DNA of 64,000 nucleotides from Minisyncoccota bacterium (GCA_035546575.1 DASZWN010000002.1:187319-251318); one strand, 5' to 3'; shown: positions 30,985 through 57,213, counted from the stretch's first letter. The notes: a model not told the origin generated them from the sequence alone. Made by a program: numbers and translations.

Positions 30985-31299
30985 ATGCCCTTTATTGCTA
31001 TTGCTCTCGCAGTTTCGTTGTTTCTTGGAGGCTCAGCCGTGGTGGCACAGACTCCGCAGGCGCATAGCGCAGCGGCGCACGCAGCTCATGCCTGGGACTT
31101 TTTTGAAGCAAAAGTAACCGGCCACGAGCGCGTTGATGCAGACACTACTGCTACAAGCACTACGCAGGTACAAGGCGGACTCCGCGTCCGCTCTGATGCC
31201 GACGCAGATGCAAAGGCCGCTGATGATCGCGCAAATGGAAACGCATCTAGCGACATCAAGCTCAATGCAGACGGCTCTCTCAAAGTAAACGTGTTCTAA
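30985..31299 (+). CDS. Small secreted hypothetical protein (signal peptide, Ala/Asp-rich)
   Basis: ORF with an N-terminal signal-like hydrophobic segment, followed by a strong terminator. Confidence 0.4.
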   Translation: MPFIAIALAVSLFLGGSAVVAQTPQAHSAAAHAAHAWDFFEAKVTGHERVDADTTATSTTQVQGGLRVRSDADADAKAADDRANGNASSDIKLNADGSLKVNVF

Positions 31300-31344
31300 C
31301 GCCTGGGCGGGGTTGTAGTCATTCCTCCACATCGGGTTGCAGAC

Positions 31345-31377
31345 AAAAACTCCCCGCTATTACGCGGGGAGTTTTTG
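31345..31377. terminator. Bidirectional intrinsic terminator (AAAAACTCCCCGC-TATTAC-GCGGGGAGTTTTT)
   Basis: Perfect 13-nt arms that include the A and T runs. Confidence 0.75.
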
Positions 31378-31384
31378 TTGCGGA

Positions 31385-31879
31385 CTATTCCTGTGCTGAA
31401 GGTGCAGTTGGCTCCTGCGGCATTGGTGTTGTCGGCGGTACTTCGACAGGCGGCGTCTGAGCCGGTGTACCTGTATCAGGTGTCTGTGGTGGCATGTCAA
31501 TGTCGTTAACGGGTAATGGCTGCTCAGGAAGTATATCTTGTATCGTATCAGTTCCACTAATCGTTACGATAGGGTCGGATATCTCAAGCGGTAGCGGAGG
31601 CTCGTCCGACGTTTCGTCCACGAACGATTCTCCGGAGAATGTAACTACCGCCGCGCTTATCTGAAGCGGCTGAGGCTCCCAGGTCCCCGCCTGGAACGTA
31701 TTGGCTGTCGCTTTTTCCTGGTTAAGGAAAGCGGAGAGGGTGTTGCCTATAGCTGCAATACTCCACAGCATAAGGCAGCATGCGCCGATTATAACCGCCA
31801 CCCGCGTGAGCGGGTCAGACAGTTTAGTCAACACGCGGCCGTGCAGATTGTTTTGAGTTGTAGATGGGTTGTGCTGCAT
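31385..31879 (-). CDS. Small TasA/camelysin-like protein with SipW-cognate-type signal peptide and Pro-rich C-terminus
   Basis: N-terminal ...AAIGNTLSAFLNQEKATANTFQAGTW matches the SipW-cognate motif class. The start is uncertain: ATG at 31879 or GTG at 31834, which overlaps the sipW stop codon. Confidence 0.5.
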   Translation of the reverse strand: MQHNPSTTQNNLHGRVLTKLSDPLTRVAVIIGACCLMLWSIAAIGNTLSAFLNQEKATANTFQAGTWEPQPLQISAAVVTFSGESFVDETSDEPPLPLEISDPIVTISGTDTIQDILPEQPLPVNDIDMPPQTPDTGTPAQTPPVEVPPTTPMPQEPTAPSAQE

Positions 31880-32426
31880 GTGATGGTGAGGGTTTGCGTT
31901 CCGCTTCGGATCGCGTAAAGCGAGACGAGCGCATACGCATAAGTTCGCGCGCAATTTTGCCTAGCTCTTCGAGGATAATGAACGCTGCGGGTACTCCGAC
32001 CAAGAGCATAAAGCCCAGTGGCTTGCGCGCGAAGTCGAGCACATAGCCTACAAACGGAATCGTGAGTAGCACTTTGCCATGCACCTCTCCGATCGGCGTG
32101 GGCGTTGGATCCGGAGCATCGTTCGCATCGCCTTTGGTCGTAAAGACTCTGTCCGCTCCTGTGCCCTCAACCGCAACAATACGGTGAGTGGTCGGGATCT
32201 GCGTTTTTGTGTCTTGGCCAAAGGTAATGATGTCGCCAATCTCGTAACTGCTCGCGGGCATATCTATGACGATCCCGCCGGTCTTAATAGTCGGCTCCAT
32301 CGAGCCCGACTTGACTACCTTTACCTGGATGTGCGCCAAGGGCACGAGCGAGATCATGAGCAGACCGCCAAGCACGGCGACTGCCGCTACAAACATCCAA
32401 TAGATTCCTTTATAGAGCCATTGCAT
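31824..32426 (-). CDS. sipW: Signal peptidase I, SipW/archaeal-ER type
   Basis: N-terminal TM segment, then the catalytic SGSMEPT motif and a downstream His. Embedded among TasA-like genes. Confidence 0.8.
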   Translation of the reverse strand: MQWLYKGIYWMFVAAVAVLGGLLMISLVPLAHIQVKVVKSGSMEPTIKTGGIVIDMPASSYEIGDIITFGQDTKTQIPTTHRIVAVEGTGADRVFTTKGDANDAPDPTPTPIGEVHGKVLLTIPFVGYVLDFARKPLGFMLLVGVPAAFIILEELGKIARELMRMRSSRFTRSEAERKPSPSHAAQPIYNSKQSARPRVD

Positions 32427-32432
32427 ACGTTA

Positions 32433-33680
32433 TTACTGTTGATTCAGGCTTGAGCACGTGAAGTTGCTGTTATTGCGAGACTGCGTTGCATAGAACGTAA
32501 TATCCGCAAGCGTCGAGTCTGTTTGTGCTGCGTTGCTGACCGATGACCCATCGCACGAGATAGCTCCGCTGCCGTCTACCGAGAGTGTGCCTGCGCACCA
32601 TGCCGAGCCAATGTAGTCGGTAGTGTTGCCCAGGAGCGGCCCGCCAAGCGTTGTTGAGTCGTGGATAGCAAGCGTGGTCGTACCTGATGAATTGAAGATG
32701 TTCGTGTACGTTCCTGCGCCAACTGGTGTTTCTGTCGGCGGGTTATAGATGCCGTCTTGGTTGAGGTCGTGCCACAAGAAGAGCTGCAGATACTGCCCCA
32801 ACTCGCCGTTGAGTCCATTTGCAGGACCGGCATCGCCCGCATCGATTTCTGGATCGATGAGATCGTTCTCGTTGTTGCGGACATTGCCGACCTCCATACA
32901 TGCCCATGCATCGTTGGTAGCGACATGGAGCGAGAGCACGTCGCGGCCCTGGTCGGCCGGCTTTACGTCGTCGAAGTTCCAGATCGGCTGGCCCGTGAGA
33001 TCGATCGGGTCAGACCACGTGTTGCCCGCGCCATGCACCTCAAGGCGAAAGCGCACGCCTGCCGGATTCTGCACTTGGTCAGGCGGGCTCGACTGGGCAT
33101 CGTTTTGCCCAAGCACCACAAGCGTGTTAACGCCTTGGTTTATCCACGAAGGGTCAATGATATAGCTGTCGGCAGACACATGCTGGTCGTTGCTTGCAAA
33201 GCCTGCGCCCAGGTCGACATCGTGGCCGTTGAGCGTTGCTTTGTAGCGGTTATCTGCGGTGATAGCGAGCGATGCGCTCGTAACGGTGCCCGTCCAGTTG
33301 AAGGTGCGCGTGAATGTTTTTTGTACATTGCTGTTAATAGCGTCGTTTGCGGCAGGATTCTCAGACCAGATCCAGGTCGAGCTTGCAAGAAGCGGGCTCG
33401 AGGAGGCTGTCCAGTATTGCGTCGTGATCGGCGTGTCGGTAATCACTACCGCTGCATGGCTATCGACTTGCGTTTGCGGGTCCGACACTACCACGAGGTC
33501 GGTCGCCGCCGCATTGCCGTTGTAGGTCGAGAGGCTGTGATCGACCTTGAGATCGATCGACCCTGCGGTGAAGATGTTCCCTGCGGAGGTCTCTGTATCG
33601 GAGAAGAACGCTCCTGTTGAGGCGGTAGCGACCGCGCCGACAAAGATGATCGTTCCGAGGCTGAATAAGATTCGTTTCAT
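32433..33680 (-). CDS. TasA/camelysin-family protein with SipW-cognate signal peptide, paralog C; TasA core is at the C-terminus (permuted arrangement)
   Basis: N-terminal MKRILFSLGTIIFVGAVATASTGAFFSDTETSAGNIFTAGSIDLKVD. Core motifs DVKPADQGRDVLSLHVATNDAWAC, AWCAGT and QSRNNSNFTC. Confidence 0.7.
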   Translation of the reverse strand: MKRILFSLGTIIFVGAVATASTGAFFSDTETSAGNIFTAGSIDLKVDHSLSTYNGNAAATDLVVVSDPQTQVDSHAAVVITDTPITTQYWTASSSPLLASSTWIWSENPAANDAINSNVQKTFTRTFNWTGTVTSASLAITADNRYKATLNGHDVDLGAGFASNDQHVSADSYIIDPSWINQGVNTLVVLGQNDAQSSPPDQVQNPAGVRFRLEVHGAGNTWSDPIDLTGQPIWNFDDVKPADQGRDVLSLHVATNDAWACMEVGNVRNNENDLIDPEIDAGDAGPANGLNGELGQYLQLFLWHDLNQDGIYNPPTETPVGAGTYTNIFNSSGTTTLAIHDSTTLGGPLLGNTTDYIGSAWCAGTLSVDGSGAISCDGSSVSNAAQTDSTLADITFYATQSRNNSNFTCSSLNQQ

Positions 33681-33700
33681 ATGCGTGTGCTGATAATTGA

Positions 33701-35026
33701 TTACGGAGTAACGCCCGTTACCGAGACGTTGTCGATATAGACATGGTCACTCGAGTTCGTCGCCGTGACGCTGAAGCGGACTTTGACTGCCGCTTTGTTG
33801 TCGGCCGACGGCGAAAGCGAGAATGTTTTAGTAGTAGTGTCAGAATCGACACCGGTTGTTTCAAGCGTCGTCCACGTCGCTCCGTTGTCTGAGGAGTACG
33901 CGACGGTAAGCGTGAGCGGTGCGCCCGGAGGAGCGTCGATGTTGCGGTCGTACTTGAGGGTTATGTTGTGATACCCGGTTGTCGAGAAGGCCACAGTGGT
34001 AAGCGTCGAGGTCTTGCCCGATGCCTTGCCGGCGTCGAGGAACGCGACTTTGCCATACGGCGATCCCCAATCATCGCCCACTACTTTGCCCGTGGTGTCC
34101 CACTTGGTGTTGTCGACTTTGTTGAAGTCCTTACCCTTGCTGCAGGAGTTGAAGTCGTCCGCAAAGAGAGTCGAGGTGGTCGGAGGCGTTGTCGAGTCGC
34201 CGGCAACCTGCCCGCTGCAGAGATATGAGCCGTTGTTGCGCGCTTGCGCGACCGAAAAGCTCACGTCTGCCTTGATGCCGTCGCTCTGGACGATATTGCC
34301 GACATCAGTGCCGCTGCATGAGAAGCCGGTTCCGCGTACAAGCGGTCCGTTGGTAGCACCCGCAAGCTTGCCTTTGCCGTCTTGGGGTTTAGGCGCCACG
34401 GTCATAGTGCCAAAGCACCATGCCTTGCCGATGTAGCGCACCGTGTCGCCAGGAATGTATTTGCCCGAGTCATTCCAGATGCTCTTGCTCGCGTCTGCGA
34501 GCGTCCATTGCTGGCCGTTGAAGAGGTCTTTCGCAAGACCTTGCTTGAAGATCTGCTCGCCAGCCTCGTACACGTTGTCGCCATCGTCTGCCCAGAAGTC
34601 GAAGTAGAGGTTGTTCTGCAGCTCGCCGTCGTTCGTGCCAGTCGTTGGATCGACAGCCGCTTCAGGCTCGTTCTGCCCGTTCTCTGGCGTTGCAGTTGTT
34701 TTGATGTTCATGCACGCCCACGCGTTGTTATTGTTTACGTGGAGCGAGATCGTATCTTCGCCAATGTCACCCGGCTTGAGGTCGAGGAAGTTGAAGAAGA
34801 GCTTCCCCGCCAGATTCGATAGCTGCCACGAAGTCGCAAGGCTCAGGGCGAGCACACCGAGATTGTTGGTGACATAACTTTCGTTATCGACTTGGAGGTC
34901 AACCACGCCGGAGGCGAAGGTGTTCCCCGTCGACGAGTTCTGGTCGGCGAAGAATGCTCCCGTGCCGCCGGCGAGCAAAGCGCCGGCAAACACGATAGAG
35001 CCCAAACTGAGTAATATTTTTTTCAT
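33701..35026 (-). CDS. TasA/camelysin-family protein with SipW-cognate signal peptide, paralog B
   Basis: N-terminal MKKILLSLGSIVFAGALLAGGTGAFFADQNSSTGNTFASGVVDLQVD. Core motifs LKPGDIGEDTISLHVNNNNAWAC, AWCFGT and AQARNNGSYLCS. Confidence 0.75.
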   Translation of the reverse strand: MKKILLSLGSIVFAGALLAGGTGAFFADQNSSTGNTFASGVVDLQVDNESYVTNNLGVLALSLATSWQLSNLAGKLFFNFLDLKPGDIGEDTISLHVNNNNAWACMNIKTTATPENGQNEPEAAVDPTTGTNDGELQNNLYFDFWADDGDNVYEAGEQIFKQGLAKDLFNGQQWTLADASKSIWNDSGKYIPGDTVRYIGKAWCFGTMTVAPKPQDGKGKLAGATNGPLVRGTGFSCSGTDVGNIVQSDGIKADVSFSVAQARNNGSYLCSGQVAGDSTTPPTTSTLFADDFNSCSKGKDFNKVDNTKWDTTGKVVGDDWGSPYGKVAFLDAGKASGKTSTLTTVAFSTTGYHNITLKYDRNIDAPPGAPLTLTVAYSSDNGATWTTLETTGVDSDTTTKTFSLSPSADNKAAVKVRFSVTATNSSDHVYIDNVSVTGVTP

Positions 35027-35066
35027 GTCAGATGTTCAGTGAATGCTGGTTTCCCGTTAAGAGAAA

Positions 35067-36611
35067 CTAGTTTCCGAAGTCGAAGGTCTTAGTTGTTGCC
35101 CCAATGGTGATTGAGAACTTATCTACATTGCCAGTGAAGCCGTTTGCGTATGGCTCACCCACTCGCATACCGAGCCATGAGTCGGTCGTGCGGGTCTTAA
35201 TTCCTGGATAGTCAGCAAGAATATCAGCCCAGGTCTTAAGCGTTGTGCCTGGAGTTCCAACTTGGCCTATATGAGGTCCTGCTGTGGGAGTAGGCCATAC
35301 AGACCCAGAGAAACTCCACTTAGCTGCACCACCCTGTATTGCATCCCAATTCTGCCATGTATCCGCAACTACTGAGCCGTTTTGCTTCGGTACGAATACG
35401 AGACGATTCTGGAAGGTGTCAGAGCCGTTGAAGTCTACGTTAAAGTTAAGGTATGCATCGCGTCCCGTACCAGGTGAGCCATCTCCTGCAGATTGCGCAA
35501 GAGTACTAAAGCTCATTGCACTAATTGTAGAGAGTGGAACGTTGCTGAACTGATAGGTTGCGAGATTGCGACGCTGAGAGCCAGTTACGGTCATTTGTGC
35601 GCTATTTGACCCAAGCGGAGGAGTGCCTGGACCTGAAACAAACGATCCAAGCGAGTTATCAATGACATCACTTTCATCGTTATAGAAGAACCACTTATCT
35701 GACCCGAATGCCGTTGCAAGATCTGCATGCGCAGTATTTGGCTGAAGATCATTTGTGGTTACATCAATTTCTGTAGAAGCCGGCGCCGTACAAGTGAAGT
35801 TTCCGTTATTGCGAGCCTGCTCTACACGCAATGATATATCTGCCGTGTATGAGTCAGTCTGAACATTATTGCCCATAGATGTACCGTTACATACTGGTGT
35901 TATGCCAGGACCACCCGCGGTAAATGTACCTGCGCACCATGCAAAGCCCAAATAACGGGTCTGTGTGCCAGGAATAGCACCTGTTCCCGAATCTGCAAGC
36001 GTAAATGATTGAGGGGTTACAGGTGCCCCAGCTGAGTGTGTACCAACTTCATCTGCGTCCCAGATGTTATTACCTGCATTTGCACCTGCGCCATTGTCAG
36101 ACCAGATCAAGAAATCCAGATTTGATGCAAGCTCGCCCGTTGCAAGTCCATTTGCATCAACAGCAGCCTCAGGCTCTGTTTGCGTATTGTCGTTGTTGTG
36201 GATATTAGATATATCTGCGCAAGCATACGCATCATTGTTGTCGATATGGAGCGAGATTGTATTTTCGCCCTCGTCTCCTGGCTTTATATCGTTAAAGTTA
36301 AAGAATTGATTGGTCGGACCAAGGTTGGTTGCCAGCCAGGTGCCACTGCATGCACTACCTTGAGCCGGATATGGAGCATTCCCTACCCAGTAATATCCTG
36401 GAGTTTCCAGAGTAGTGCTAGAAGTAGGAGTCAAGAGAGTGCAAATATTACCGTTATAATGCTGCGTTGAATCAACGGTAAGGTCGATAGCACCTGCGCT
36501 GAAGGTGTTGCCTGTTGAGGTTTCTGTATCGCTAAAGAACGCGCCCGTTGCGCCCCAGGCCACTGCGCCCACAAATACGATCGCGCCCAAACTCATTAAT
36601 ATTCGTTTCAT
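35067..36611 (-). CDS. TasA/camelysin-family protein with SipW-cognate signal peptide, paralog A (first gene of locus)
   Basis: N-terminal MKRILMSLGAIVFVGAVAWGATGAFFSDTETSTGNTFSAGAIDLTVD. Core motifs IKPGDEGENTISLHIDNNDAYAC, AWCAGT and EQARNNGNFTC. Confidence 0.72.
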   Translation of the reverse strand: MKRILMSLGAIVFVGAVAWGATGAFFSDTETSTGNTFSAGAIDLTVDSTQHYNGNICTLLTPTSSTTLETPGYYWVGNAPYPAQGSACSGTWLATNLGPTNQFFNFNDIKPGDEGENTISLHIDNNDAYACADISNIHNNDNTQTEPEAAVDANGLATGELASNLDFLIWSDNGAGANAGNNIWDADEVGTHSAGAPVTPQSFTLADSGTGAIPGTQTRYLGFAWCAGTFTAGGPGITPVCNGTSMGNNVQTDSYTADISLRVEQARNNGNFTCTAPASTEIDVTTNDLQPNTAHADLATAFGSDKWFFYNDESDVIDNSLGSFVSGPGTPPLGSNSAQMTVTGSQRRNLATYQFSNVPLSTISAMSFSTLAQSAGDGSPGTGRDAYLNFNVDFNGSDTFQNRLVFVPKQNGSVVADTWQNWDAIQGGAAKWSFSGSVWPTPTAGPHIGQVGTPGTTLKTWADILADYPGIKTRTTDSWLGMRVGEPYANGFTGNVDKFSITIGATTKTFDFGN

Positions 36612-36682
36612 TAGTAAGATTGATTATTTCTAATTTTCTAATTCTTTCGCTGCGGCTATGAGACGACCGACCTCGTTACTCA

Positions 36683-36730
36683 AATAAAAAGGCCGCCTCC
36701 TGGTGCGTGAGTACGCAACAAAAAGCGGCC
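36683..36730 (-). promoter_or_regulatory. Terminator-like hairpin (GGCCGC...GCGGCC followed by TTTTTATTT on the minus strand) in the leader region upstream of the TasA-like operon
   Basis: Read from the sequence. It lies about 75 nt upstream of the first tasA-like start codon. Candidate attenuator or upstream terminator. Confidence 0.35.
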
Positions 36731-37094
36731 CATCTATGGGTGCCTGCCTTGCGATTCGCCGGAAACACAATCCCCATGTGTGTATTCCAAAACTGCTATG
36801 GATAATGTTGACGGAACAGAACTCTAAACAGAAACCCTGTCGCTTTTGTTGCGACGTAAACGAAATGTAGCATCACAAAAATGAAGCTAGAGTAAAGTCG
36901 AATATATTTTTGTTGAAAACTCTGTGGGCAACACGTTGGCAATCATGTATAACCTGTTGATAGAAAATTCGAGAGTATTTTTTAGTTACACGCAACGGAT
37001 TGACAGATTCTTTTGAGAGCGCATAGTGAGAGTATTGGGAACCAGCCCGGCCATGCGCCGACGGTTCTTTACACTCAAATAAGAGAGGCCTACT

Positions 37095-37457
37095 ATGCGG
37101 CTCATTCGCAGGCTTTTACTAGGGTTGTGCCTCCTTCCAGGAGTTGCGCAGGCGGGACCCGCCTTCGAGGAAGATCGCGACTTTCTGAACAAGAGTCACC
37201 TGTATTGCGAGGGGGAAACGGCGGAGAATCTTCCCTTCTTTGCTATTGTCGACATGGAAAACGAAAAAGACGTTGCCTCTATGGAGGAGATGGGAATATC
37301 CTGCAGGATATTCAAGGGCAGTAACCTTACGTTCTTGGGCTCTCTCGCCATAGACGTCAAAGGCAATACGCCAACCTACAAGGTGACCATCTACGAATTT
37401 TGCGACGACAACCATGTCAGTTGGTATCACTGGGAGTACGAGAATATTCGCTACTAG
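37095..37457 (+). CDS. Small secreted Cys-containing hypothetical protein (120 aa)
   Basis: RBS AAGAGAGG, signal peptide MRLIRRLLLGLCLLPGVAQA. Contains the 18-bp palindrome AATATCCTGCAGGATATT. Confidence 0.5.
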   Translation: MRLIRRLLLGLCLLPGVAQAGPAFEEDRDFLNKSHLYCEGETAENLPFFAIVDMENEKDVASMEEMGISCRIFKGSNLTFLGSLAIDVKGNTPTYKVTIYEFCDDNHVSWYHWEYENIRY

Positions 37458-37575
37458 TGCACGGCTTTCCACAACTCTGTATCTGAATTGTCTTGTATCT
37501 CATACACAAACGATACATAGTGCAATAAGGAAACGCCGGGCATGACTTCAACCCGTTCTTTGAAAGGAACACGTC

Positions 37576-37983
37576 ATGCGGTTACTGAAATATGCGCTTC
37601 TTGCGCTTTCCCTATCGGTTACGGCTCCTGTGCAAGCACAGGAAATCGAGCCGATCGTTATCGGCGCCAACGAACACATAGACGCGTTCGGCGCCTGCTT
37701 GAACGAAGAATCTACTCAGTCTCTGGTCAACACCGCCAAGACCATCGGCACAAGCGCTCTGCAGTTTAAGTACCTGGCAGAGCTTCAGGTATGTCAGGTG
37801 GTGCAGAATGCAAATGTGGTGGTAGACCGGCTTATCGAAATGTATATCGATGACCTGGGTATCGACGAACCCCACATAATGTGGGAAGTCGAACTTCGGA
37901 TTCTCAACTGGAACGGCACCTCTGTACGGGTATGGGCACTCATGAACCGTCCCGTAATCAAATCTGCAAAGGGTTCAATCTGA
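37576..37983 (+). CDS. Small secreted hypothetical protein (135 aa)
   Basis: RBS AAAGGAA, signal peptide MRLLKYALLALSLSVTAPVQA. Confidence 0.5.
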   Translation: MRLLKYALLALSLSVTAPVQAQEIEPIVIGANEHIDAFGACLNEESTQSLVNTAKTIGTSALQFKYLAELQVCQVVQNANVVVDRLIEMYIDDLGIDEPHIMWEVELRILNWNGTSVRVWALMNRPVIKSAKGSI

Positions 37984-38050
37984 ACCTTTTTACTCGCCGC
38001 GGCCAAAAGCTGCGGCGGTTTCTTTTTGCATGATAAAATCACGTTATCCT

Positions 38051-38593
38051 ATGGACATGCTCCCCAACTCGATAACGATCACTATCGTATTGCTGACCGC
38101 ATTTCTTTCTTTTATCACGGCTATTAAATACGGGGTCGAGGACGACTTTGTACGTACACGGTTCATCATGACCGCGTTCTTTTTCTTTATAGTAGCAACG
38201 CTCACCGTATCGTTTTGGCACTATACCTTCGACACGCTCCCCTACACGGTGCCTGCATGGGGTTTAGGCGCCTTGATCGGCTATATATTGGGCGTACGCA
38301 CCGAGCAGCAGAAGTTGCGTGACCAAGGTTTGGCTTACTACACCGAGCACTTTGCGCATATCCATATGCAAGACATCGAAAAGCTCAACTGGTGGGCTGT
38401 GATCAACTTCTACTCCGTCATAAGTGCGCTTATTATGATCAATTTGGTGGGCCTAAGCACCGTGATCTTTAAACAAGCCGAGAGTTGGGCGATCATCACG
38501 AGCGTCGTGGGAGCGTTTCTGCTCGGCACCATCGCTCCGTACCTAGTTCATCTTTGGAGCCTGCCTGCCGGCAGGCAGGTATCAAATAAATAG
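38051..38593 (+). CDS. Hypothetical integral membrane protein
   Basis: Start chosen at MDMLPNS. 5 or more TM segments. The 3-prime end overlaps the 20-bp palindrome CCTGCCTGCCGGCAGGCAGG. Confidence 0.5.
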   Translation: MDMLPNSITITIVLLTAFLSFITAIKYGVEDDFVRTRFIMTAFFFFIVATLTVSFWHYTFDTLPYTVPAWGLGALIGYILGVRTEQQKLRDQGLAYYTEHFAHIHMQDIEKLNWWAVINFYSVISALIMINLVGLSTVIFKQAESWAIITSVVGAFLLGTIAPYLVHLWSLPAGRQVSNK

Positions 38594-39286
38594 ACCTGCT
38601 GATATCAAAGCACCGCATACTATCAAAAGCACAACGAGCGAAATATAAAATACGATCCTTGCGCGGCGGCGCTGCTTATCATTCTGCGGGCGTCTAACCA
38701 AGAGCGGCACGCCCGCATTGGCGTACTCGTCGTAGCGGTAGCGCGCAATCGCCAAAAAGTGCGGTAGCTGCCATACAAACAGTATTGCAAAGAGCCACAA
38801 GGCGGTCATATCTAGCGCATGGGCAGCAGCAACGTAACCCACGACCGGCGGCATAGCGCCCGCAACAGCACCCGGAAAAAGGGCGAGGCCCGTACGCGGC
38901 TTGAGCGGCGTATAGATAAGCACGTAGACAACAAATCCGATAAGCGCCATATCGAGCGAGCGCATGTCGAGCGGGAGCATAAGCAGTATCCCGACCGCAA
39001 GCAGTGCAAACCCGAACACGAGCGCATGTGCCGAGACAATACTGCCCGATGGGAGCGCGCGCTTTTGAGTGCGCTCCATTTTGGCGTCGATAAACCGGTC
39101 TGAGTAGTTATTAAAGACGCATGCGCTTGCAACAATGCACGCAAGACCTAGCACCATGGCAGCAAACGCTTTCCAGTCGACTACACCATGCGAGCCAAAT
39201 ATAAATGCAGCAGCCGCAACCGCCACATTCATGTAGACCATGCGCGGCTTGGCGAGGCGATAATACGAGCTAATCAGTGTCGGCAT
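38582..39286 (-). CDS. cyoE: Protoheme IX farnesyltransferase (heme O synthase)
   Basis: UbiA-family prenyltransferase motifs (NNYSDRFIDAKMERT). Last gene of the cyo operon. Confidence 0.8.
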   Translation of the reverse strand: MPTLISSYYRLAKPRMVYMNVAVAAAAFIFGSHGVVDWKAFAAMVLGLACIVASACVFNNYSDRFIDAKMERTQKRALPSGSIVSAHALVFGFALLAVGILLMLPLDMRSLDMALIGFVVYVLIYTPLKPRTGLALFPGAVAGAMPPVVGYVAAAHALDMTALWLFAILFVWQLPHFLAIARYRYDEYANAGVPLLVRRPQNDKQRRRARIVFYISLVVLLIVCGALISAGLFI

Positions 39287-39632
39287 GAGGGAATATATTT
39301 TCTCCTTTAAATATATCGATGTCGGACATCTGCATATGCTCCAGGTTGGTCATTATCCAAAGCGTACCAACAACAAGAATTAAAACGACAACAACCGCAA
39401 ACACGAGCGCGGTTAAGTTCCACCGCGGCTTGCGCTCCTGCCCTATATGCAAAAAGAAGATCAGCTGCACACATAGCTGTGCGAGGGCCAGGATAACAAA
39501 CCCGAATCTAAGCTCCTGGTGCGTCGGGAATGAGTGCGAGGTAGCTCCGTGCAACCATAAGAGCCCGAGCGGCACGAATGTGAGGAGTATTGAGAGTATA
39601 AAACCGGTTATGTAGGCGTGTTGCGGTTTCAT
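39270..39632 (-). CDS. cyoD: Quinol oxidase subunit IV
   Basis: About 120 aa, 3-TM CyoD/QoxD-like protein in the expected operon position. Confidence 0.65.
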   Translation of the reverse strand: MKPQHAYITGFILSILLTFVPLGLLWLHGATSHSFPTHQELRFGFVILALAQLCVQLIFFLHIGQERKPRWNLTALVFAVVVVLILVVGTLWIMTNLEHMQMSDIDIFKGENIFPHADTD

Positions 39633-39635
39633 AGT

Positions 39636-40205
39636 TTAGAGCGAGCCAAACAGATACACAAACGTAAAGATAAAGATCCAGATAATATCGAGGAAGTGCC
39701 AGAACAAGCTTAGTATGGTAAGCCGGCGCACCGCAGTATCGGTAAATCCCCGCCTCCATATATAGGCTGCGAGTATCAGCATCCAGAGCAGGCCGATCGA
39801 TACATGGAGCCCATGCGTGCCAAGGAGCACGAAGAACGAGGAGAGGAACGCGCTCACCCCAGGCCCGCTCCCCTCCCCAACTAGATGCACAAATTCGCTA
39901 CCTTCAAGCAATATGAAGAAGAATCCCAGTATCCACGTTGCCGCAAGCGCAAAAAGGGACTGCGCTTTTTTACCCTCGCGTGCCCGCAAGACTGCGATCC
40001 CTGCGGTAAAGCTGGAGCTGAGCAGTACTACTGTTTCCAAAAGCACAAACGGCAGGTCAACAATCGTTTCTATAGATACTCTGCCAAAGGTTGCATCTTG
40101 GAGCACTGCATAGGTGGCAAAAAGGCCGGCAAACAAAACGCAGTCGCTCATGAGATATACCCAGAAGCCGAAGGTTACTTTGTCGAGTAGAGATTCTTCT
40201 TTCAT
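39636..40205 (-). CDS. cyoC: Heme-copper quinol oxidase subunit III
   Basis: Subunit III-like 5-TM sequence ([16 protein letters not shown]). Confidence 0.8.
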
Positions 40206-43336: not shown

Positions 43337-43409
43337 TGGACCGGAGGGAAGTCGAATCCCTGACCTCGTCAATGCGAATGACGCGCTCTACCAGCTGAGC
43401 TACCGGCCC
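43337..43409 (-). tRNA. tRNA-Ala (anticodon CGC)
   Basis: Cloverleaf folded by hand: acceptor GGGCCGG with a G3:U70 pair, anticodon loop TTCGCAT, T-loop TTCGACT. Confidence 0.8.
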
Positions 43410-44171: not shown

Positions 44172-44242
44172 TCGGAGTGCCGAGAATCGGACTCGGGTCT
44201 TACGCACCCGAAGCGCATGTAATACCACTATACCACACTCCG
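44172..44242 (-). tRNA. tRNA-Pro-like (anticodon CGG) with a non-canonical T-loop (C55) and a 20-bp extended perfect stem (44160-44179 / 44236-44255)
   Basis: Hand fold: acceptor CGGAGTG/CACTCCG, anticodon stem TGCGC/GCGTA with loop TTCGGGT, T-arm CCGAG-TCCGATT-CTCGG. Thirteen extra perfectly paired bp extend beyond the acceptor stem. Confidence 0.4.
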
Positions 44243-56745: not shown

Positions 56746-57213
56746 TGTTGTGGGACCCTTAGGATCCCGTCTGGAGGGTTTAGCCCTCCTGATGGGACCA
56801 TATGGTCCCCGATCGCGATGCCAACATTGCTGCCAGCTCGCACATCGATAGCTCTTGGCTTTGCACCATGAGCGAGTCATTAATTTCGTTTCATCTCGAA
56901 CGTCCATGCCCTCCTCGCGGAAGTTACTTCTGCTCGAACTGATTCGAAACTCACGACTTGATAAGAGTTGTCAGCAGTCGCCACCGCCGATCGGTGAAGC
57001 TTTGACCAAACTTCTCTCTTACCTCGCAACCATGTCCGAATGGTCATCCCGAATTTCGAACTTCAGGTACTCGATTCTGATTGCCTCGGCGTCACTTTCT
57101 TTCTTACGATCAATCGTGCGCCGGTAATGTATGAGTCTACTCCTCTCACTTTGACCTACAAGTGGATAACTTATTGGAGAATATTTTTTAAAAATCCGCA
57201 AGAGTTCCTATTC

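What the first reader, a model, noticed from the sequence alone, without database searches (positions are those of the whole stretch)
31385..36611. TasA/camelysin-SipW fibre locus with three divergent paralogs, one of them domain-permuted, plus a small TasA-like gene translationally coupled to sipW
The minus-strand operon runs: TasA-like A (514 aa), TasA-like B (441 aa), TasA-like C (415 aa), then sipW (carrying the SGSMEPT catalytic motif), then a small TasA-like gene of 150-165 aa.

All four substrates carry the SipW-cognate N-terminal signature (for example GATGAFFSDTETSTGNTFSAGAIDL). The three large ones share the TasA core motifs (LKPGD..., xAWAC, AWCxGT, QARNNGxFxCS).

In A and B the TasA core is N-terminal, followed by a large extra domain. 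In C the extra domain (residues about 40-230) comes before the core. That looks like domain shuffling among paralogs.

The small fourth gene overlaps the sipW stop codon through a candidate GTG start and has a Pro-rich tail. By analogy with TapA-like minor or anchor subunits, it could play that role.

Overall this looks like a multi-subunit TasA-type (archaeal bundling-pilus-like) extracellular fibre system. Two small secreted proteins (37095-37457 and 37576-37983) lie just upstream on the opposite strand, and a terminator-like hairpin sits in the operon leader.
Basis: partly seen in the sequence, partly recalled or inferred. Interest (0 to 1): 0.65.

Follow-up and report, generated by a model that had tools for sequence, protein, structure and literature searches.

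The report
Sugar-binding TasA-type fibre operon in CPR bacterium
An uncultured ultra-small (Paceibacterota) bacterium carries an operon for three TasA-like secreted subunits, two with recognisable sugar-binding modules, plus a dedicated signal peptidase and a tiny strand-only partner protein; this conserved kit probably builds an adhesive extracellular fibre, but nobody has tested that.

Summary
The five minus-strand genes exist as described: A, B, C, sipW and S.

**Supported**
- SipW is an archaeal/ER-type signal peptidase I (TIGR02228, 104.7 bits against a cut-off of 51.85).

**Not supported**
- "Domain-permuted" is wrong. All three keep the same order, and C has a CBM67-like lectin module inserted after the N-terminal strand.
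- A and B carry different, unrelated C-terminal domains. B's is CBM/reelin-like; A's is unknown.
- S is not a small TasA. It has only the SipW-type signal and donor-strand-like motif, then a Pro/acid-rich tail.
- The two small secreted ORFs upstream are not conserved near any related locus.

**Conservation**
- 49 of 60 related Patescibacteria loci have 2-5 core paralogs followed by sipW.
- At least 36 of the 50 sipW-containing loci (window included) have an S-type protein next. In at least 13 it is fused in frame to SipW.
- The leader hairpin is real and belongs to a conserved ~128-nt element.

**Best reading:** a donor-strand-exchange heteropolymer primed by S. That step is inferred, not shown. 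It is a new variant of a known kind.

The parts
36661..36786 (-). Conserved 5' leader element. It contains a small hairpin with loop AUGGGGA, a terminator-like hairpin and the motif GAGGUCGGUCG.
   Evidence: Covariance model R1 scores the window at 119 bits. It finds an untrained homologue in L059 (80 bits) and 10 weaker plus-strand hits, and every locus hit lies just upstream of a TasA-like gene. Rfam gives no match.
36682..36731 (-). Terminator-like hairpin (36691-36731) plus U-run (36682-36690), about 70 nt upstream of the A start codon.
   Evidence: The fold is shown. RNAalifold finds 9 pairs with compensatory changes. On the model-fitted alignment 89.9% of cells pair, against 43-58% when the partners are slid. 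The upstream genes are divergent, so this is not the terminator of a co-directional upstream gene.
35067..36611 (-). Subunit A (514 aa): SipW-type signal, TasA-like core (residues ~25-275) and a conserved C-terminal domain of unknown family (residues 275-514, nt 35070-35789).
   Evidence: Core HMM E 2.7e-57. Pfam PF12389 scores 24.9 bits on residues 12-50. The C-terminal domain is conserved in 7 other loci but has no PDB or Pfam match.
33701..35026 (-). Subunit B (441 aa): SipW-type signal, TasA-like core (residues ~25-272) and a CBM/reelin-subrepeat-like beta-sandwich (residues ~280-441, nt 33704-34189).
32433..33680 (-). Subunit C (415 aa): SipW-type signal, N-terminal strand, inserted lectin module, then the TasA-like core (residues ~233-411). 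It has no C-terminal extension.
   Evidence: BLASTP to A and B. The core HMM aligns residues 221-410 to HMM positions 27-229. The same architecture recurs in L018, L027, L037, L038, L039 and L060. Homologous insert sequence is found in L007, L018, L027, L037, L039 and L060.
32976..33536 (-). CBM67-like lectin module inserted in C (residues 49-235).
   Evidence: A 7-sequence profile hits fungal lectins 6T0Q, 6T1D and 6KBJ (E ~1e-13). It also hits residues 130-249 of the Streptomyces rhamnosidase 3W5M (E 3.6e-11). NCBIfam rhamnosidase matches residues 93-246 at E 8e-6.
31824..32426 (-). sipW: archaeal/ER-type signal peptidase I (200 aa) with two TM segments (6-38 and 134-159) and a basic cytoplasmic tail.
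   Evidence: TIGR02228 scores 104.7 bits against a cut-off of 51.85. Pfam Peptidase_S26 scores 25 bits. The SGSMEP, THRI and GDAND motifs are in the translation.
31385..31834 (-). S: a donor-strand-only protein (149 aa from GTG; 164 aa from ATG 31879). It has a TM/signal segment, the motif TLSAFLNQEKATANTFQAGTW (nt 31679-31741) and a 97-aa Pro/Thr/Glu-rich tail. It overlaps sipW by 11-131 nt depending on the start.
   Evidence: TIGR04088 scores 19.3 bits against a cut-off of 19. It has no core domain. Positional equivalents were found by motif search in 36 of the 50 sipW-containing loci counted (window included), 13 of them fused in frame to SipW. Fused forms were also called independently as proteins P0326, P0368 and P0383.
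31343..31378 (-). Bidirectional intrinsic terminator that closes the operon.
   Evidence: -29.5 kcal/mol, z -8.1, flanked by an A-run and a U-run.

Best explanation
This is a five-gene operon of a Candidatus Paceibacterota (CPR/Patescibacteria) genome. It encodes a SipW-dependent, TasA-type extracellular fibre whose subunits display carbohydrate-binding modules.

**Proposed mechanism**
1. A, B and C are exported. The dedicated archaeal-type signal peptidase SipW cleaves them after the conserved ..TGA motif.
2. Cleavage frees a very conserved mature N-terminus (FF.D.ETSTGNTF.AG..DL).
3. As in B. subtilis TasA, this segment acts as a donor strand. It inserts into the beta-sandwich core of a neighbouring subunit, so the subunits chain into a fibre.
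4. The donor segment is nearly interchangeable among the three paralogs, so the fibre is probably a heteropolymer.
5. The fibre's surface is studded with accessory modules: a CBM67-like lectin in C, a CBM/reelin-like sandwich in B, and an unknown domain in A. These bind glycans on a surface or host cell.
6. S is the same signal plus donor strand with no acceptor core. It supplies the first strand to start or cap the fibre, as the N-terminus of TapA does. Its production is tied to SipW by gene overlap here and by in-frame fusion in other lineages.
7. A conserved leader with an intrinsic-terminator-like hairpin probably gates transcription.

**Shown:** gene content, homologies, the fold, the domain identities, and conservation of the locus and leader.

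**Inferred:** cleavage site, polymerisation, heteropolymer, glycan binding, the role of S, and attenuation.
For: **SipW identity**
- TIGR02228 scores 104.7 bits, above the 51.85 cut-off.

**Core fold**
- AF2 gives pLDDT 87.5 and pTM 0.81.
- Foldseek gives 8AUR at E 1.2e-5, probability 1.00, the only hit below 1e-3.

**Donor segment**
- In 104 within-locus paralog pairs, the 24 residues after the predicted cleavage site are 71% identical. The core is 45% identical and the signal peptide 57%.
- The N-terminus is the more conserved region in 103 of 104 pairs.
- The same segment is low-confidence and unstructured in the monomer models (residues 17-39). That is expected for a strand that only orders in a neighbour.
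- TasA residues 28-38, directly after the SipW site, are the donor strand, and TapA's N-terminus mimics it (PMC9674648, PMC10151520).

**Accessory modules**
- B's C-terminal domain.
- C's insert.

**Locus conservation**
- 49 of 60 related loci have 2-5 core paralogs followed by sipW on the same strand.
- S-type proteins are separate in 23 loci and fused in 13 by regex among the 50 sipW-containing loci counted, window included. About 10 more are visible by eye.
- Fused SipW-S proteins were also called by independent pipelines.

**Leader**
-.

**Family size**
- 2761 clusters at 50% identity match the core profile.
Against: - No filament has been seen. Polymerisation was not tested, even in silico, because no multimer prediction was available.
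- Sequence profiles do not link the core to TasA. The core-containing profiles gave no TasA hit among PDB sequences, and Pfam M73 aligns only the first ~50 residues.
- The core has four conserved cysteines.
- An Asp-rich stretch (ADDGDN in B, DLNQDG in C) looks like a possible Ca-binding loop. That reading is mine, from the sequence, and untested.
- I believe TasA lacks both features, from memory and not checked here, so assembly details may differ.
- After cleavage S has no recognisable anchor, so where it sits in or on the fibre is unclear.
- High N-terminal conservation could partly reflect SipW recognition alone.
- The leader hairpin could insulate the operon rather than regulate it.
Confidence: 0.6

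Rival explanations
1. These are secreted or surface-bound, non-filamentous lectin-like adhesins, or a 2-D surface or matrix lattice. They share a TasA-like beta-sandwich scaffold and a dedicated signal peptidase. The conserved N-terminus serves SipW recognition and self-complementation only.
For: - The monomer models are complete, confident beta-sandwiches in which residues 42-53 pair within the same chain.
- Monomeric TasA is likewise stable and self-complemented (PMC9674648).
- Related biomatrix proteins can form lattices rather than simple fibres (abstract of bioRxiv 10.64898/2026.01.04.697558).
- There is no direct evidence of polymerisation.
Against: - The four best structural neighbours are all donor-strand filaments.
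- The post-cleavage segment is far more conserved than the core across paralogs. Such conservation is unusual for residues beyond +1/+2 of a signal-peptidase site.
- A strand-only protein (S) is conserved next to sipW or fused to it. That is hard to explain without strand donation.
Confidence: 0.25
2. C is a circularly or domain-permuted paralog produced by shuffling the same extra domain between the N- and C-terminal sides of the core.
For: The position of the extra sequence differs between C (before most of the core) and A and B (after the core).
Against: - C's insert shows no meaningful similarity to the A or B C-terminal domains. Those two also differ from each other (only short chance-level hits with E above 0.2; each domain finds only its own orthologues).
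- The insert is CBM67-like. B's domain is CBM4/reelin-like. A's matches nothing.
- The order of core elements is unchanged in C.
- Each architecture is an old, separately conserved class.
Confidence: 0.02
3. A, B and C are camelysin-type (MEROPS M73) metalloproteases rather than structural proteins.
For: The Pfam family hit is named 'Camelysin metallo-endopeptidase'.
Against: - The Pfam match covers only the signal and first strand.
- None of the three has an HExxH motif.
- The structural neighbours are filament subunits and sugar-binding modules, not proteases.
Confidence: 0.03
4. S is not a working component. It would be a chance ORF overlapping sipW, or a decaying remnant of a SipW C-terminal extension.
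For: - The database search found only one sequence homologue, 99% identical and from the same MAG.
- S has no Pfam domain.
- Its tail is low-complexity.
- No Shine-Dalgarno motif helps fix its start.
Against: - A protein with the same basic region, TM segment and motif occupies the same position, or is fused to SipW, in most loci across very divergent lineages. Short Pro/acid-tailed forms like S are among them.
- TIGR04088 is above its cut-off.
- An independent assembly keeps the same sipW end.
Confidence: 0.05

Closest known systems
B. subtilis tapA-sipW-tasA biofilm fibre operon (TasA fibre, PDB 8AUR)
   Same: - A dedicated SipW-type signal peptidase is encoded in the operon.
- Substrates share the SipW-cognate N-terminus.
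- An accessory protein's N-terminus mimics the subunit donor strand.
- The accessory gene overlaps sipW. The overlap of tapA and sipW is noted in PMC10151520.
   Different: - Gene order is subunits, then sipW, then accessory, rather than tapA-sipW-tasA.
- There are three (2-5 elsewhere) divergent subunit paralogs instead of one.
- Each subunit carries an extra domain: a CBM67-like insert, a CBM/reelin-like C-terminal domain, or an unknown domain.
- The core has four conserved cysteines.
- The core is not detectable from TasA by sequence.
- The accessory protein lacks TapA's Ig-like domain and is fused to SipW in many lineages.
- The host is a CPR bacterium.
Archaeal bundling pili (AbpA, PDB 7UEG) and other archaeal donor-strand filaments (Sulfolobus threads 7PNB, cannulae CanX 9H8B)
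   Different: - There is no sequence similarity.
- According to PMC9245690, ABP loci lack a dedicated signal peptidase.
- The subunits here are larger and multidomain.
TapA (TasA anchoring/assembly protein)
   Same: Both are minor, SipW-processed proteins whose N-terminal residues resemble the major subunit's donor strand. Only TapA's N-terminal part is needed for its function (PMC9674648).
   Different: S has no folded domain, only a 97-residue Pro/Thr/Glu-rich tail, and shows no sequence homology to TapA. In other CPR loci the equivalent protein carries lamin-tail (LTD) or other domains or is part of the SipW polypeptide.
CBM67 rhamnose-binding module (S. avermitilis rhamnosidase 3W5M) and related fungal lectins (6KBJ, 6T0Q)
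   Same: The profile of C's insert matches these at E 1e-13 to 4e-11 over ~110-130 residues.
   Different: Here the module is inserted into a loop of a fibre-subunit core, directly after the putative donor strand. In the known cases it sits in a glycosidase or a free lectin. Its sugar specificity is unknown.

Membership tests
TasA/camelysin family (Pfam PF12389 Peptidase_M73; NCBI 'TasA family protein') | Match to PF12389 at or above the gathering score (22.5 bits) | tested here: inconclusive
   A scores 24.9 and B 23.7, both passing. C scores 16.0 and fails. All alignments cover only residues ~2-52 of a 196-position model.
TasA/camelysin family (Pfam PF12389 Peptidase_M73; NCBI 'TasA family protein') | TasA-type jelly-roll/beta-sandwich fold of the mature domain | tested here: met
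TasA/camelysin family (Pfam PF12389 Peptidase_M73; NCBI 'TasA family protein') | SipW-cognate signal region (TIGR04088, cut-off 19 bits) | tested here: inconclusive
   A scores 16.8, B 16.2 and C 18.1, all just below the cut-off. S scores 19.3, above it. The motif is obvious by eye and in an in-house HMM.
TasA/camelysin family (Pfam PF12389 Peptidase_M73; NCBI 'TasA family protein') | Polymerisation by N-terminal donor-strand exchange | not testable with these tools
   Support is indirect only: N-terminus conservation of 71% against 45% for the core and filament-type structural neighbours.
SipW / archaeal-ER-type signal peptidase I (TIGR02228) | Profile score above the curated cut-off | tested here: met
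   104.7 bits against 51.85.
SipW / archaeal-ER-type signal peptidase I (TIGR02228) | Catalytic Ser/His (plus Asp) motifs of the Ser-His type peptidases | tested here: met
   SGSMEP, TTHRIV and KGDANDAPD are present in the translation. Their assignment as catalytic residues rests on general knowledge of the family.
SipW / archaeal-ER-type signal peptidase I (TIGR02228) | Equivalog of Bacillus SipW (NF046067, cut-off 190) | tested here: not met
   98.7 bits. It belongs to the same subfamily but not to the Bacillus orthologue group.
TapA | N-terminus resembling the subunit donor strand, processed by SipW | tested here: met
   S has TLSAFLNQEKATANTFQAG, against FFSDTETSTGNTFSAG in A. TIGR04088 scores 19.3 bits.
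TapA | Central Ig-like/beta-sandwich TapA domain and sequence homology to TapA | tested here: not met
   S has no domain hits and a low-complexity tail. It is a functional analogue at most.
CBM67-like lectin module | Sequence-profile similarity to solved CBM67 or related lectin domains | tested here: met
   E 7e-14 to the fungal lectins and 3.6e-11 to residues 130-249 of 3W5M.
CBM67-like lectin module | Calcium-dependent sugar binding | not testable with these tools

The most novel reading that the evidence does not exclude
Patescibacteria as a group possess a previously undescribed surface organelle. It would be a heteropolymeric TasA-type fibre whose subunits each present a different glycan-binding module, used to grip host cells or particles. 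A strand-only primer would nucleate it. That primer is so tightly coupled to its own signal peptidase that the two are one polypeptide in many lineages, giving a self-processing peptidase-substrate fusion. A new leader RNA element with a built-in terminator would switch the fibre on.
Probability: 0.3. Interest if true: 0.75.

Novelty: new variant of a known kind. Interest (0 to 1): 0.55.

Why it matters
How ultra-small CPR bacteria attach to hosts and surfaces is largely unknown outside the type IV pili of a few Saccharibacteria.

This operon type recurs across many Patescibacteria lineages. The core profile matches 2761 protein clusters at 50% identity. All 60 loci recovered from GTDB species genomes come from uncultured MAGs, and most are labelled as CPR groups. 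Its subunits carry lectin or CBM modules, so it is a concrete candidate for an adhesion fibre.

It also extends the TasA donor-strand system beyond Firmicutes and archaea, in a modular form. That makes several ideas testable:
- mixed-subunit assembly;
- priming by a minimal donor-strand peptide;
- a signal peptidase fused to its own substrate.

The conserved leader may be a new regulatory RNA for CPR, a group with almost no known cis-regulators.

Tried and rejected
- **phmmer of A, B and C against PDB sequences:** no hits, even at E 10.
- **Profile of the core family against PDB:** only a chance IsdH hit, and no TasA. The TasA link therefore had to come from structure.
- **A's C-terminal domain:** no PDB or Pfam relative, even with an 8-sequence profile.
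- **S homologue search:** only one hit, 99% identical and from the same MAG. Its relatives were found by position instead.
- **afdb50 fold library:** unavailable.
- **Rfam on the leader:** nothing at E up to 1.
- **GGTCG in the loop of a covarying hairpin:** a crude stem test was barely above background (47% against 39% with at least 4 bp). I keep GGTCG only as a sequence motif.
- **Promoter scan:** no minus-strand sigma-70-like site in the leader.
- **The two small secreted ORFs as part of the system:** rejected, since they have no homologues in any related locus.
- **Protease reading:** rejected, since there is no HExxH motif.
- **Literature searches for SipW or TasA in CPR:** only a one-line mention of PF12389 hits in Patescibacteria, in PMC9245690.

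Full report
**What is there**

The minus strand between 36611 and 31385 holds five tightly packed ORFs:
- A: 514 aa
- B: 441 aa
- C: 415 aa
- a 200-aa signal peptidase
- a small ORF, S, that overlaps the peptidase gene's 3' end

The gaps between them are 40, 20 and 6 nt. S overlaps sipW by 11 nt from its GTG start or 56 nt from its ATG start.

A strong bidirectional terminator follows S at 31343-31378 (-29.5 kcal/mol, z -8.1). The flanking genes are an F-type ATP synthase operon on one side and heme o synthase, CyoD and CyoC on the other.

Exact-sequence look-up places the window in a 327-kb contig of a Candidatus Paceibacterota MAG, locus tags VHD31_02820 to 02840. NCBI names B 'TasA family protein' and the peptidase 'signal peptidase I'. 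A, C and S are 'hypothetical'.

**The peptidase**

It scores 104.7 bits on TIGR02228, the archaeal/ER-type signal peptidase I that includes SipW. The cut-off is 51.85. It scores 98.7 bits on the Bacillus SipW equivalog, below that model's cut-off of 190.

It has the SGSMEP, THRI and GDAND motifs. It has two hydrophobic segments, 6-38 and 134-159, and a basic tail.

**The three large proteins**

BLASTP shows one shared core:
- A1-275 matches B1-271 at 40% identity.
- A1-55 matches C1-56 at 73%.
- A103-276 matches C233-411 at 37.5%.

Sequence profiles barely connect this core to TasA:
- Pfam Peptidase_M73 aligns only residues ~2-52. It passes for A and B and fails for C.
- TIGR04088 is just under its cut-off for all three.
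- Neither single sequences nor a family profile find TasA among PDB sequences.

So the TasA-like assignment is supported, as a distant relative.

**'Domain-permuted' is not supported**

C keeps the signal and first strand at its N-terminus and the rest of the core at its C-terminus. Residues 49-235 are an insertion.

A profile of that insertion from seven loci matches fungal lectins (E ~1e-13). It also matches residues 130-249 of the Streptomyces rhamnosidase 3W5M (E 3.6e-11). From memory, that region is the rhamnose-binding CBM67.

A's C-terminal 240 residues match nothing known.

The three accessory domains share no similarity. Each architecture is conserved as its own class in other genomes. 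The paralogs therefore differ by independent domain accretion, not by shuffling one domain.

**The small gene S**

S has no core and no Pfam domain. It does reach TIGR04088's cut-off (19.3 bits).

It consists of three parts:
- a basic stretch plus a hydrophobic segment;
- the motif TLSAFLNQEKATANTFQAGTW, which parallels FFSDTETSTGNTFSAGAIDL of the subunits;
- a 97-residue tail with 21 prolines.

A database search found only one hit, 99% identical and from the same MAG. Position, however, reveals relatives. Fifty sipW-containing loci were counted, including the window. A motif search found the gene right after sipW carrying the same 'basic, TM, [ST].SY[FY].D.E.S..N.L.AG' arrangement in 23 of them. 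Twenty-one of those 23 overlap sipW. In 13 more the same arrangement is fused in frame to the SipW C-terminus. About ten further cases are visible by eye.

The parts downstream of the motif vary:
- short Pro/acid-rich tails like the window's;
- lamin-tail domains;
- a ~250-300-residue form with a recurring '..EPIQY' motif (seen by eye);
- very long proteins.

Fused SipW-S proteins with short acidic tails were also called independently in public data (P0326, P0368, P0383).

S is therefore a real, conserved component. It is best described as donor-strand-only, not as a small TasA.

**Conservation of the system**

A scan of one genome per GTDB species returned 60 loci. All are uncultured MAGs. 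Most are labelled as CPR groups: Parcubacteria/Paceibacterota, Kaiser-, Taylor-, Zambryski-, Moran-, Giovannoni-, Portnoy- and Levybacteria, and Microgenomatus. A few carry other automatic labels.

Forty-nine loci have 2-5 core paralogs, usually three, directly followed by sipW on the same strand. Most of the rest are short contigs or loci cut at a contig end.

The core profile matches 2761 clusters at 50% identity.

The literature tools found only a one-line note that PF12389 hits occur in Patescibacteria (PMC9245690). No study of such operons turned up.

**Mechanism**

In B. subtilis, the residues right after the SipW cleavage site (28-38) are the donor strand that links TasA subunits. TapA's N-terminus mimics that strand to start assembly (PMC9674648, PMC10151520).

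Here the equivalent 24 residues are 71% identical between paralogs of the same locus. The core is 45% identical. The N-terminus is the more conserved in 103 of 104 pairs. The segment is also disordered in the monomer models.

I infer the following:
- SipW cleavage exposes a common donor strand.
- A, B and C co-assemble by strand exchange.
- The lectin-like modules decorate the fibre.
- S supplies a primer or cap strand.

None of these steps is shown here.

Three points differ from TasA or are otherwise worth noting:
- four conserved cysteines;
- an Asp-rich stretch that may bind calcium (my reading of the sequence);
- no HExxH motif, which argues against a protease role.

That TasA lacks the cysteines and the loop is from memory and was not checked here.

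**Leader**

In the window and several relatives the upstream genes are divergent, so it is not the terminator of a co-directional upstream gene.

It is part of a ~128-nt conserved element. A covariance model built from five loci finds a sixth at 80 bits and ten weaker hits. Every hit in a related locus lies just upstream of a TasA-like gene, out of 827 kb searched on both strands. The only other forward-strand hit is a weak one elsewhere in the window (56663-56761, E 0.08).

The stem shows compensatory changes.

A GGTCG motif lies 48-113 nt before the start codon in 32 of 52 leaders. Rfam has no match.

Whether this element is an attenuator or an insulator placed ahead of a promoter is open.

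**Verdict**

The TasA/SipW fibre reading is supported at the level of fold and locus. The permutation idea is rejected. The role of S is sharpened.

This is a new variant of a known kind and is partly annotated already. It has some unusual features: lectin-bearing paralogs, a strand-only partner often fused to its peptidase, and a conserved leader. These make it moderately interesting and experimentally approachable.

Noticed in passing
window 36661-36786 (-); also L059:7804-7933, L046:1155-1283, L004:1209-1345, L034:7827-7956, L042:7796-7918: A conserved ~128-nt leader element lies upstream of TasA-like operons. It has an AUGGGGA-loop hairpin, a terminator-like hairpin with compensatory changes, and a GGTCG motif. 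It is absent from Rfam and may be a new cis-regulatory RNA in Patescibacteria.
   Followed up: partly
L010:10750-12318, L011:10734-12302, L026:8240-9844, L041:5043-6836, L042:11453-13183, L046:4621-6165; proteins P0326, P0368, P0383: In many lineages the signal peptidase is one polypeptide with a downstream TM segment and its own cognate cleavage/donor-strand motif. This is a peptidase fused to an apparent substrate. Several fused tails carry lamin-tail domains (LTD).
   Followed up: partly
window 36612-36650, 35027-35066, 33681-33700, 32427-32432, 31835-31880 (-): None of the five gene starts has a Shine-Dalgarno-like motif. The sequence before the first gene is simply AU-rich. The same AU-rich pattern appears in the related leaders.
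   Followed up: no
window 37095-37457 (+) and 37576-37983 (+): These two small ORFs have classical Sec-type signal peptides. They have no Pfam or NCBIfam match and no homologue in any of the 60 related loci. They lie in the lowest-GC stretch of the window (0.477 for 36001-38000). They may be lineage-specific or acquired genes.
   Followed up: partly
window 38030-38593 (+) and 30985-31299 (+): A 187-aa multi-pass membrane protein and a 104-aa small protein flank the operon. Both are conserved in the same relative positions in close relatives: L022, L034 and L059 for the first, L004 and L034 for the second. No family was assigned to either.
   Followed up: no
window 38582-40205 (-): Heme o synthase and cytochrome o ubiquinol oxidase subunits IV and III are encoded in a Paceibacterota genome. 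CyoD and CyoC score just above their NCBIfam cut-offs. This is a terminal oxidase in a group usually described as fermentative.
   Followed up: partly
B residues 145-157 (window ~34556-34594), C residues ~300-312: An Asp-rich stretch (FWADDGDNVYE in B, WHDLNQDGIYNPP in C) looks like a calcium-binding DxDxDG-type loop. There are also four conserved cysteines (B: 105, 204, 237, 270) that probably form two disulfides. Neither feature was examined structurally.
   Followed up: no
window 43337-43409, 44172-44242, 48186-48258 (-): Rfam found three tRNA genes. Nothing else in the 64-kb window reached a gathering score.
   Followed up: no
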